Shown here piece after piece: positions 3,437 through 3,472 of a stretch of 64,000 nt of DNA (positions within the stretch are counted from its first letter, which is position 1; every line of letters starts with the position of its first letter). Both the position numbers and the translations under genes were made by a program. This stretch comes from Escherichia coli (GTDB lineage: Bacteria; Pseudomonadota; Gammaproteobacteria; Enterobacterales; Enterobacteriaceae). Below the pieces are notes generated by a model. It had not been told where the DNA came from and ran no database searches. It worked only from the letters and a program-made list of their open reading frames with translations. The stretch is from NCBI RefSeq assembly GCF_003334385.1, contig NZ_QOWN01000005.1; one strand, 5' to 3'.

Positions 3437-3472
3437 CAGGGAATAATAATTTCTATTTTATATTATTCCCTG
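3437..3472 (+). terminator. stem-loop (12-bp perfect stem cagggaataata / tattattccctg) followed by TTTT, between major subunit and chaperone genes
   Basis: Inverted repeat read directly from the sequence; a T-run follows on the + strand. Confidence 0.5.

What the first reader, a model, noticed from the sequence alone, without database searches (positions are those of the whole stretch)
3437..3472. Perfect 12-bp hairpin plus T-run immediately after the major fimbrial subunit gene yadN
Seen in sequence: cagggaataata-(12 nt)-tattattccctg followed by TTTT, in the 97-bp gap between yadN and the chaperone gene. Established knowledge: in other chaperone-usher operons (pap, fim) a stem-loop after the major subunit gene creates differential mRNA stability or partial termination so the subunit is made in excess. 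Inference: the same stoichiometry device operates here.
Basis: partly seen in the sequence, partly recalled or inferred. Interest (0 to 1): 0.35.

Follow-up and report, generated by a model that had tools for sequence, protein, structure and literature searches.

The report
Terminator-like hairpin after pilin gene yadN
A stable RNA hairpin followed by a short U-run sits directly after the major Yad fimbrial subunit gene of E. coli K-12 and is conserved in position across divergent alleles and species; it is most likely an ordinary leaky terminator and mRNA-end protector that lets the cell make more subunit than assembly machinery.

Summary
Arms 3437-3448 and 3461-3472 are perfectly complementary, with a 12-nt loop. 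TTTT (3473-3476) follows, inside the 97-nt yadN-yadV gap of a K-12-identical window.

The hairpin folds at -13 to -15 kcal/mol (z = -5.3). A perfect inverted repeat of this size arose in 10 of 20,000 shuffles of the gap. It is single-copy, has no Rfam match and is unannotated in MG1655.

The main evidence is comparative. Nearly every allele examined at the folK / major-subunit / chaperone locus has a hairpin at the same place, and so do most related loci in other genera. Stem sequences differ, three stem pairs changed on both sides and still pair, loops vary freely, and a T-rich tail usually follows on the sense strand. Seven of nine K-12 chaperone-usher operons checked show the same layout.

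Best reading: a leaky intrinsic terminator and 3' exonuclease barrier that enriches yadN mRNA over the downstream genes. This was not tested. The operon is silenced in laboratory cultures, and the one 3'-end data set whose tables could be searched lists no 3' end there. The weak features (AU-rich stem, long loop, four U) fit partial rather than full termination.

Verdict: a real but ordinary feature; a new member of a known kind.

The parts
2819..3403 (+). yadN, the major Yad fimbrial subunit gene (194 aa), which lies upstream of the hairpin
   Evidence: ORF list. RefSeq annotation of identical DNA in K-12 and other strains.
3404..3435 (+). First, weaker hairpin immediately after the yadN stop codon (GUAUUCA.CCAGUUA...UGAUUG..UGAAUAU)
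   Evidence: Folds at -6.9 kcal/mol, z = -2.9. A hairpin is predicted at the same place, with changed sequence, in the FAH, APEC E12049 and GPEC1337 alleles. Its function was not examined further.
3437..3448 (+). Left arm of the main hairpin (CAGGGAATAATA). A3436 can add a 13th pair with T3473.
   Evidence: Sequence; fold; covariation with the right arm.
3449..3460 (+). 12-nt loop (ATTTCTATTTTA)
   Evidence: Sequence. Treating the outer 11 bp as the stem, the intervening segment is 13-23 nt in the other alleles and only 53-67% identical to K-12. K-12 lacks 6+1 nt that are present in the B1-type allele.
3461..3472 (+). Right arm of the main hairpin (TATTATTCCCTG)
   Evidence: Sequence; fold; covariation.
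3473..3480 (+). U-rich tail TTTTAATT (6 T of 8, no G or C): the presumed termination or release zone
   Evidence: Sequence. The same tail occurs in the B1, FAH and SWHEFF68 alleles, and ST131 has TTTTTTT. Across 21 loci, T-richness after the hairpin exceeds A-richness before it.
3489..3503 (+). yadV ribosome-binding region (CAGGGATGG) and ATG start (3501)
   Evidence: Sequence. This stretch and the start codon are conserved in all family-A alleles. CAGGGA repeats the first six bases of the left arm.
3501..4241 (+). yadV (also called ecpD), the fimbrial chaperone gene and the first gene downstream of the hairpin
   Evidence: ORF list; RefSeq annotation.

Best explanation
The inverted repeat is an RNA hairpin in the sense yad mRNA, which is transcribed from the yadN promoter. 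It most likely does two things.

1. It acts as a leaky intrinsic terminator. The stem is G+C-rich at its base (CAGGG/CCCUG) and abuts an all-A/U tail (UUUUAAUU). A fraction of RNA polymerases would release there, and the rest would read through into yadV-htrE-yadMLKC.
2. It acts as a 3' stem-loop that blocks 3'-to-5' exonucleases on terminated or processed yadN transcripts.

Together these would give more yadN mRNA than mRNA for the chaperone, usher and minor subunits. That matches the need for many YadN copies per fimbria.

Shown: the structure, its non-random stability, its position, its conservation with compensatory change, its sense-strand U-rich tail, and its recurrence in related and paralogous operons.

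Inferred: termination, stabilisation and the effect on protein ratios.
For: - Stability and chance: -15.2 kcal/mol, z = -5.3. A comparable repeat arose in 10 of 20,000 shuffles of the gap. The hairpin is kept when up to 200 nt of upstream RNA is included.
- Position: it lies in the only large gap inside the operon, 97 nt. The other junctions are 11-49 nt by the coordinates.
- Other E. coli alleles: the eight other alleles first fetched at the folK / subunit / chaperone locus all fold into a hairpin in this gap, with different stem sequences. O157-type alleles have a G+C-rich AUAAGGUUUGCC-loop-GGCAAACCUUAU stem followed by UUUU. Six further hits from a second search (some repeating alleles already seen) fold the same way.
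- Other species: the same holds in E. albertii, E. whittamii, Escherichia sp. E1V33, Pseudocitrobacter, Entomohabitans, Klebsiella oxytoca, Marinobacter and Delftia.
- Gap folding: 16 of the 23 gaps analysed fold at z of about -2 or lower, counting K-12 itself.
- Covariation: in the K-12-like family, 11 stem pairs are 96.6% paired. Three pairs changed on both sides (C-G / U-G / U-A; A-U / G-C; U-A / C-G). Slid controls are 37-61% paired, with 0-1 such pairs. The O157-like family has 3 of 15 pairs changed on both sides.
- Arms versus loop: in three of the four alleles compared with K-12 (B1, FAH, ST131) the arms are 82-100% identical and the loop 57-67%. In SWHEFF68 the arms are 67-73% identical and carry the compensatory changes.
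- Orientation: the tail after the hairpin averages 4.6 T of 8. The 8 nt before it average 3.1 A of 8. This is over 21 loci, one-sided Wilcoxon p = 0.0014, and the loci are not independent.
- Paralogues: sfm, elf, yra, yfc, ybg and ygi in K-12 have significant hairpins after the first subunit gene. yraH has a textbook terminator followed by UUUUCC.
- Read-through is needed and is plausible. All yad genes rise together in an hns mutant, and the locus is described as one operon, yadN-ecpD-htrE-yadMLKC. The same paper notes unequal induction of genes within the locus (PMC13245861).
- Precedent: papA mRNA carries an RNase-resistant 3' terminator structure, and malE has a 3' protective hairpin (PMC5927463).
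Against: - No experimental 3' end or coverage step is available. The Term-seq supplements of Adams et al. 2021 do not list yadN, ecpD or yadV. The locus is almost silent in the EPEC data.
- The hairpin is atypical for an efficient terminator. Only 4 of its 12-13 pairs are G-C, the loop is 12 nt, and only four U are contiguous. The simple scan missed it.
- A d'Aubenton-Carafa-type score, with the formula recalled from memory, was negative. So was the score of the panC control terminator, so this test is uncalibrated and does not decide anything.
- Two alleles lack a clean U-run: GPEC1337 / 2017.06.04CC has UUCUAAAU, and PEC1013 has CUUGAAAA. A hairpin without termination may therefore be enough.
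- A strand test based on G-U wobble pairs gave no consistent preference for the sense strand.
Confidence: 0.65

Rival explanations
1. The hairpin is only an mRNA-stability element. RNA polymerase does not terminate at it. After endonucleolytic cleavage in the AU-rich single strand downstream, the hairpin stops 3' exonucleases, so the yadN segment outlives the rest of the polycistronic RNA. This is the malE-malF type of differential decay.
For: - The stem is AU-rich, the loop is long and the U-run is short, all of which look poor for termination.
- Some alleles keep the hairpin but lose the U-run, namely GPEC1337 / 2017.06.04CC and PEC1013. Paralogues ygiL and elfA have strong hairpins with no adjacent U-run.
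- The mechanism is documented for malEFG and other operons (PMC5927463).
Against: - A T-rich tail directly after the stem recurs in unrelated stem families: K-12-like, O157-like, Pseudocitrobacter and yraH. An exonuclease barrier alone would not need it.
- The K-12 tail is entirely A/U over 8 nt and adjoins a G+C-rich stem base, which is the arrangement that favours release.
Confidence: 0.2
2. The yadN 3' untranslated region gives rise to a stable small RNA, by analogy with FimR2 from the fimA-fimI gap. This RNA would act in trans, or would bind CsrA through its GGA motifs. Alternatively, CsrA would bridge the two CAGGGA motifs (3437-3442 and 3489-3494) to control yadV translation.
For: - FimR2 is an RNase E-processed RNA from the equivalent gap of the fim operon. 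It binds CsrA and is annotated in MG1655.
- Its sequence also carries two CAGGGA motifs.
- The yad gap has two hairpins followed by a U-run, which is the general shape of 3'-UTR-derived small RNAs.
Against: - The FimR2 sequence shows no obvious similarity to the yad gap, and the yad gap has no Rfam match.
- The first GGA lies inside the stem rather than in a loop.
- The O157-like hairpins have no GGA in the stem.
- The second motif is simply the yadV ribosome-binding site.
- No trace appears in the RIL-seq-derived tables that could be searched.
- There are only four U for Hfq binding.
Confidence: 0.07
3. The palindrome works at the DNA level. It would be a binding site for a dimeric regulator or nucleoid protein, or a recombination or indel hotspot at the border between the hypervariable yadN gene and the more conserved assembly genes.
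For: - Compensatory changes also preserve DNA symmetry.
- The wobble-pair strand test was not decisive.
- The gap is 26% G+C in an H-NS-silenced locus.
- K-12 and B1 alleles differ by a 6+1-nt indel inside the element.
Against: - The distance between the arms varies from 12 to about 23 nt among alleles, which does not suit a fixed dimer site.
- Unrelated stem sequences occupy the same position in other alleles and species. This points to selection for pairing rather than for a recognition sequence.
- The T-rich tail is specific to the sense strand.
Confidence: 0.04
4. It is a chance palindrome in AT-rich DNA with no function.
For: - The low-complexity, AT-rich sequence raises the chance of self-complementarity.
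- The operon is cryptic in K-12.
Against: - A comparable repeat arose in 10 of 20,000 composition-matched shuffles.
- The position is conserved across alleles and genera, with covariation.
Confidence: 0.03

Closest known systems
papA 3' terminator and differential stability of pap pilin mRNA (P fimbriae, uropathogenic E. coli)
   Same: - A stem-loop directly 3' of the major subunit gene of a chaperone-usher operon.
[quoted passage not shown]
   Different: - In pap the well-studied step is RNase E cleavage between papB and papA, together with a 5' stem-loop. yadN is the first gene of its operon, and no upstream processing is implied.
- No experiment exists for yad.
- The yad stem is AU-rich and has a 12-nt loop.
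Hairpins after the first subunit gene of other E. coli K-12 chaperone-usher operons (yraH, elfA, sfmA, yfcV, ybgD, ygiL)
   Same: - Same position, between the first subunit gene and the next gene, which is the chaperone or the usher.
- The gaps have significantly stable folds (z = -2.4 to -5.0).
- Several are followed by T-rich tails.
   Different: - Those stems are short, G+C-rich and have 4-6-nt loops. yraH is a canonical terminator.
- K-12 yad has the most AU-rich stem and the longest loop of the set.
- There is no sequence similarity among them.
malE-malF intercistronic 3' protective hairpin (differential operon decay)
   Same: An intercistronic hairpin after the first and most-needed gene, proposed to block 3' exonucleases so that the upstream cistron is enriched (PMC5927463).
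   Different: - To my recollection, the mal element is made of REP repeats and does not terminate transcription.
- The yad hairpin is single-copy and has a U-rich tail.
FimR2, the small RNA from the fimA-fimI gap
   Same: - It lies in the gap after the major subunit gene of a chaperone-usher operon.
- It contains two CAGGGA motifs.
   Different: - FimR2 is a demonstrated RNase E product that binds CsrA through a loop.
- The fim gap is not unusually structured (z = 0.17-0.22).
- No small RNA is known from yad, its GGA is in the stem, and the two sequences show no obvious similarity.

Membership tests
Intrinsic (Rho-independent) terminator | A stable stem-loop on the transcribed strand, just downstream of a gene, with a G+C-rich stem base | tested here: met
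   - 12-13 bp stem at -13.4 to -15.2 kcal/mol, z = -5.3.
- The stem base is CAGGG/CCCUG.
- It starts 34 nt after the yadN stop codon, on the sense strand.
Intrinsic (Rho-independent) terminator | A U-tract immediately 3' of the stem | tested here: inconclusive
   - The tail is UUUUAAUU: four contiguous U, 6 U of 8, no G or C.
- It meets the tail rule of the scan (at least 5 T in 8) but is shorter than a classic 7-9 U tract.
- It is kept in most alleles, extended to U7 in ST131, and broken in GPEC1337 and PEC1013.
Intrinsic (Rho-independent) terminator | A short loop (typically 3-8 nt) | tested here: not met
   - The loop is 12 nt in K-12, which is why the scan did not list the hairpin.
- Other alleles have 13-23 nt between the outer 11-bp arms, partly folded into sub-stems.
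Intrinsic (Rho-independent) terminator | Transcript 3' ends mapped in the U-tract, or termination shown in vitro | not testable with these tools
   - The Term-seq supplements of Adams et al. 2021 have no entry for yadN, ecpD or yadV.
- The Dar and Sorek 2018 supplements are not held.
- The locus is H-NS-silenced and barely expressed in EPEC.
Post-pilin attenuator or stabiliser of chaperone-usher operons (pap-type) | Lies between the major subunit gene and the assembly genes of one operon | tested here: met
   - Gene order is yadN, hairpin, yadV, htrE, yadM, yadL, yadK, yadC.
- This is the only large gap inside the operon.
Post-pilin attenuator or stabiliser of chaperone-usher operons (pap-type) | The structure, rather than the sequence, is conserved among orthologous and allelic operons | tested here: met
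   - Hairpins at the same position in nearly all E. coli alleles examined and in most related loci of other genera.
- Three compensatory pairs among 11 stem pairs, against 0-1 in slid controls.
Post-pilin attenuator or stabiliser of chaperone-usher operons (pap-type) | Excess or longer-lived major-subunit mRNA relative to downstream cistrons, with read-through supplying the downstream genes | not testable with these tools
   Only indirect evidence exists. All yad genes rise together in an hns mutant, and genes within the locus are induced unequally (PMC13245861).
FimR2-like 3'-UTR-derived, CsrA-binding small RNA | Sequence or covariance-model similarity to a described RNA family | tested here: not met
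   - The Rfam E-value search of window 1-12000 gave only a chance miRNA-precursor hit: 22.6 bits against a gathering score of 93, E = 0.53.
- By eye, the FimR2 sequence shows no similarity to the yad gap beyond the CAGGGA hexamer.
FimR2-like 3'-UTR-derived, CsrA-binding small RNA | A GGA motif presented in a hairpin loop | tested here: not met
   The GGA at 3440-3442 is base-paired in the stem. The second GGA is the yadV ribosome-binding site.
Dispersed palindromic repeat (REP / BIME / MITE-like) | Many copies per genome | tested here: not met
   - A 116-nt query centred on the hairpin finds a median of 1 and a maximum of 2 places per genome.
- The arm sequence with up to 2 mismatches occurs in the window no more often than chance.

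The most novel reading that the evidence does not exclude
The yadN 3' region (two hairpins plus a U-run) would be more than a passive terminator. It would yield a stable 3'-UTR-derived RNA, or a CsrA-responsive switch that uses the duplicated CAGGGA motifs. That would parallel FimR2 and link Yad fimbrial expression to global post-transcriptional control. Lineage-specific loop indels, such as the K-12 loss of 6+1 nt that makes the stem perfect, would then tune the subunit-to-machinery ratio between E. coli lineages.
Probability: 0.08. Interest if true: 0.5.

Novelty: new member of a known kind. Interest (0 to 1): 0.2.

Why it matters
If confirmed, this explains how a single promoter can deliver much more YadN than chaperone, usher and tip proteins. 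It would also account for the unequal induction of yad genes reported in bloodstream-infection models.

More broadly, 7 of the 9 K-12 chaperone-usher operons checked here carry a hairpin after their first subunit gene. That makes this a near-standard design feature of these operons. It should be kept in mind when engineering or measuring expression of cryptic fimbriae.

It does not open a new question. The principle has been known since the pap studies.

Tried and rejected
- Rfam search of window 1-12000 at E-value threshold: only a chance miRNA-precursor hit on the minus strand (E = 0.53). Rejected.
- Built-in terminator scan: it misses the site only because its loop limit is 8 nt.
- d'Aubenton-Carafa-style score, formula recalled from memory, with Turner-2004 energies. 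K-12 scored -16, but the panC control terminator also scored -10. The score is uncalibrated and was not used.
- Published 3'-end and interactome tables:
  - Adams 2021 supplements have no yadN, ecpD or yadV entry.
  - Dar and Sorek 2018 and Melamed 2016 supplements are not held.
  - A lookup in the TERMITe paper failed for lack of capacity.
  - EPEC tables show the locus is almost silent.
  - The small-RNA prediction tables have nothing.
  - A full-text search for yadN plus terminator found nothing relevant.
- Internal promoter for yadV. A 9/12 match (TTGATT-16-AATAAT, 3420-3447) overlaps the left arm. Promoter-like hits in the region are at chance level, 23 against 19.9 +/- 4.0. By eye, the -10 match is lost in the FAH-type allele (AATAAC) and the hexamer spacing is lost in ST131. 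Rejected.
- RNA thermometer: the stem stays paired from 20 to 65 C. Rejected.
- Alternative pairing of the right arm (UCCCUG) with the yadV ribosome-binding site (CAGGGA): only 6 bp across a 16-nt loop, far weaker than the 13-bp hairpin. The local hairpin over the ribosome-binding site is not significant (-2.4 kcal/mol, z = -0.27). Not pursued.
- Dispersed-repeat idea: single copy. Rejected.
- Strand-of-selection test by G-U wobble pairs: mixed result, not decisive.
- MAFFT plus RNAalifold on eight hairpins of the O157-like group misaligned two distant sequences. It was redone on six.

Full report
**What is there.** The window is identical to E. coli K-12 across this region (100% matches to W3110 and K-12 derivatives). 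It is oriented folK (1970-2449), yadN (2819-3403), yadV/ecpD (3501-4241), htrE, yadM, yadL, yadK, yadC, then panB.

- Left arm CAGGGAATAATA at 3437-3448.
- A 12-nt loop at 3449-3460.
- Right arm TATTATTCCCTG at 3461-3472.
- TTTT at 3473-3476, followed by AATTAA.
- All of this lies inside a 97-nt gap.

A3436 and T3473 can add a 13th pair. Window position w corresponds to MG1655 coordinate 159,702 - w, so the hairpin lies at 156,265-156,230 on the minus strand.

**Is it more than chance?** As RNA, the hairpin folds at -15.2 kcal/mol, against -4.5 +/- 2.0 for dinucleotide shuffles (z = -5.3). With 12 bp only, the value is -13.4. The whole gap folds at -24.9 kcal/mol (z = -3.4).

The hairpin persists when 60-200 nt of upstream RNA are included. 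It stays paired from 20 to 65 C.

Perfect inverted repeats with arms of 12 nt or more and loops of 3-20 nt occur at only three places in the 64 kb. Shuffles of the window give 0.08 on average. Shuffles of the 26%-GC gap alone give one in 10 of 20,000 trials.

The built-in terminator scan does not list the site.

The element is single-copy and has no Rfam match. MG1655 RefSeq has no feature between yadN and yadV.

**Comparative evidence within E. coli.** The locus between folK and the usher gene carries very different alleles.
- A 497-nt query covering the gap and the start of yadV matches 5,226 of 5,426 complete genomes. By identity, 1,150 are at 99% or more, 1,602 at 95-99%, 7 at 90-95%, 1,161 at 80-90% and 1,306 at 60-80%.
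- A 116-nt query centred on the hairpin finds the K-12-like gap family in 4,169 genomes. The K-12 variant accounts for 1,136 of them. A B1-type variant that is 6+1 nt longer inside the element accounts for about 1,610.

I fetched representatives of each identity class and folded the gap after the major subunit gene. Each has a hairpin there.
- The K-12-like family keeps the stem base, usually CAGGGAAUA paired with UAUUCCCUG. The sequence between the outer 11-bp arms varies from 13 to 23 nt, sometimes with an inner sub-stem. The tail is UUUUAAUUAA in most, UUUUUUU in ST131 and UUCUAAAU in GPEC1337 / 2017.06.04CC.
- SWHEFF68/E67 has UA(U)GGGAGUAAC paired with GUUACUCCCUA. Three pairs have changed on both sides relative to K-12, and none is broken.
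- O157-type alleles, whose chaperone is only about 60% identical, have an unrelated G+C-rich stem. It reads AUAAGGUUUGCC, a 4-nt loop, then GGCAAACCUUAU, followed by UUUU(U)C. That is a textbook terminator shape.
- PEC1013 has yet another G+C-rich hairpin, with no U-run.

**Other species.** A scan of one genome per species with a chaperone alignment returned 19 loci. Sixteen had a fimbrial-subunit gene directly upstream of the chaperone gene. In three Pseudomonas loci a second chaperone-like gene lies upstream instead.

Hairpins, mostly with T-rich tails, follow the subunit gene in E. albertii, E. whittamii, Escherichia sp. E1V33, Pseudocitrobacter, E. coli E69, Entomohabitans, Klebsiella oxytoca and Marinobacter. 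Delftia has a strong hairpin with no T-run. Serratia symbiotica and three other Pseudomonas loci show nothing convincing.

Of the 23 gaps analysed, 16 fold at z of about -2 or lower, counting K-12 itself.

**Covariation.** I made a loop-excised alignment of eight distinct K-12-like stems. The bulged U of SWHEFF68 was removed, as stated in the sequence label.
- The 11 pairs are 96.6% paired.
- Three pairs changed on both sides: pair 1 C-G / U-G / U-A, pair 7 A-U / G-C, pair 11 U-A / C-G.
- Only 8 of 500 shuffles reach the observed covariation score.
- Slid controls are 37-61% paired, with 0-1 compensatory pairs.

The O157-like family has 3 of 15 pairs changed on both sides.

Region by region, in three of the four alleles compared with K-12 (B1, FAH, ST131) the arms are 82-100% identical and the loop 57-67%. 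In SWHEFF68 the arms are 67-73% identical and carry the compensatory changes. The neighbouring coding DNA is 78-84% identical in the three divergent alleles.

**Which strand?** A test based on G-U wobble pairs was not decisive. B1-type, SWHEFF68 and E1V33 hairpins are more stable on the sense strand. O157, GPEC1337, FAH and Pseudocitrobacter hairpins are more stable on the antisense strand.

The tail gives the orientation instead. Over 21 loci, the 8 nt after the hairpin hold 4.6 T on average, and the 8 nt before it hold 3.1 A. The one-sided Wilcoxon p is 0.0014, and the loci are not independent. The variable arm spacing also argues against a fixed protein-binding palindrome.

**How general is the layout?** I checked nine chaperone-usher operons in MG1655.
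- The gap after the first subunit gene is significantly structured in yad, sfm, elf, yra, yfc, ybg and ygi (z = -2.4 to -5.0). yraH carries a canonical terminator, a 14-bp G+C-rich stem with a 4-nt loop followed by UUUUCC.
- It is not structured in fimA-fimI (z = 0.17-0.22) or in yehD-yehC, where the gap is only 34 nt.
- The fim gap carries the annotated small RNA FimR2. FimR2 is an RNase E product that binds CsrA (PMC9723502).

**Mechanism.** The best reading is a leaky intrinsic terminator that also serves as a 3' exonuclease barrier.

The points in favour are the G+C-rich stem base next to an all-A/U 8-nt tail, the recurrence of the tail in unrelated stem families, and the position of the element. 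Read-through is also needed. The locus is described as one operon, yadN-ecpD-htrE-yadMLKC, and all its genes rise together in an hns mutant. The same paper reports unequal induction among the genes (PMC13245861).

The weak features are the AU-rich stem, the 12-nt loop and the run of only four U. They fit partial rather than complete termination.

A stability-only role is the main rival. Alleles that lack the U-run, and paralogues that lack one, favour it.

Termination, stabilisation and the protein ratio are all inference. The locus is silent in standard cultures, and no 3' end is recorded in the one data set whose tables could be searched.

**Verdict.** No paper in the library describes a yadN terminator. 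The device itself is a long-known kind and is common among E. coli fimbrial operons. This is an ordinary feature of low interest.

Noticed in passing
window 9991-10027: A second perfect inverted repeat lies four bases after the yadC stop codon (9985-9987), at the end of the yad operon. Its stem is 16 bp and G+C-rich, -30.2 kcal/mol, z = -6.8. No T-run follows it (GGATAAATCATTG). It sits just upstream of a panB promoter-like site at 10037-10064. It could be an operon-end 3' barrier rather than a classic terminator.
   Followed up: partly
window 3404-3435: A weaker hairpin (-6.9 kcal/mol, z = -2.9) starts directly at the base after the yadN stop codon. A hairpin is predicted at the same place, with altered sequence, in the FAH, APEC E12049 and GPEC1337 alleles. 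The 3' untranslated region may therefore be a two-hairpin unit.
   Followed up: partly
window 3437-3442 and 3489-3494; L030:1175-1209: The hexamer CAGGGA occurs twice in the 97-nt gap: once as the first bases of the left arm and once in the yadV ribosome-binding site. FimR2 in the fimA-fimI gap also has two CAGGGA motifs. Both yad contexts resemble the CsrA binding consensus as I recall it. This may be coincidence.
   Followed up: partly
window 3443-3449 versus L001:1644-1657: The K-12 allele lacks 6+1 nt that are present in the B1-type allele (GGGAATAgtgttAATAA). This loss is what makes the K-12 stem a perfect 12-13 bp. About 1,136 complete genomes carry the K-12 form and about 1,610 carry the longer form.
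   Followed up: yes
L006:602-1222 (E. coli 2017.06.04CC): In this strain the annotated yadN is 621 nt instead of 585. It ends at a TAG that forms the first three bases of the hairpin's left arm (UAGGGAAUAAC). Terminating ribosomes would therefore sit on the stem base. The closely related GPEC1337 allele has the normal upstream stop.
   Followed up: partly
window 2819-4241 and loci L004-L010: The folK / subunit / chaperone / usher locus holds several deeply divergent allelic families within E. coli. Chaperone identity falls to 59-61% in O157-type strains, and some major-subunit genes are too divergent for megablast. This suggests cassette-like replacement or diversifying selection at a fixed chromosomal site.
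   Followed up: partly
L012 (NZ_JAHZMP010000039.1, 670 bp): A 670-bp contig in a Terrisporobacter mayombei (Clostridia) assembly encodes residues 1-176 of E. coli YadV at 100% identity. This is almost certainly E. coli contamination of that assembly.
   Followed up: no
window 44284-44313: This is the third perfect inverted repeat of 12 bp or more in the window. It has a G+C-rich 12-13 bp stem and a 6-nt loop, about -24 kcal/mol on either strand. It was not examined further.
   Followed up: no
Supplementary file 4 of PMC8550237 (EPEC expression table): In the E. coli common pilus operon, the mean count for the major subunit gene ecpA (about 250) exceeds ecpB-ecpE (18-85) in one condition. That is the same subunit-excess pattern in an unrelated pilus operon.
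   Followed up: no
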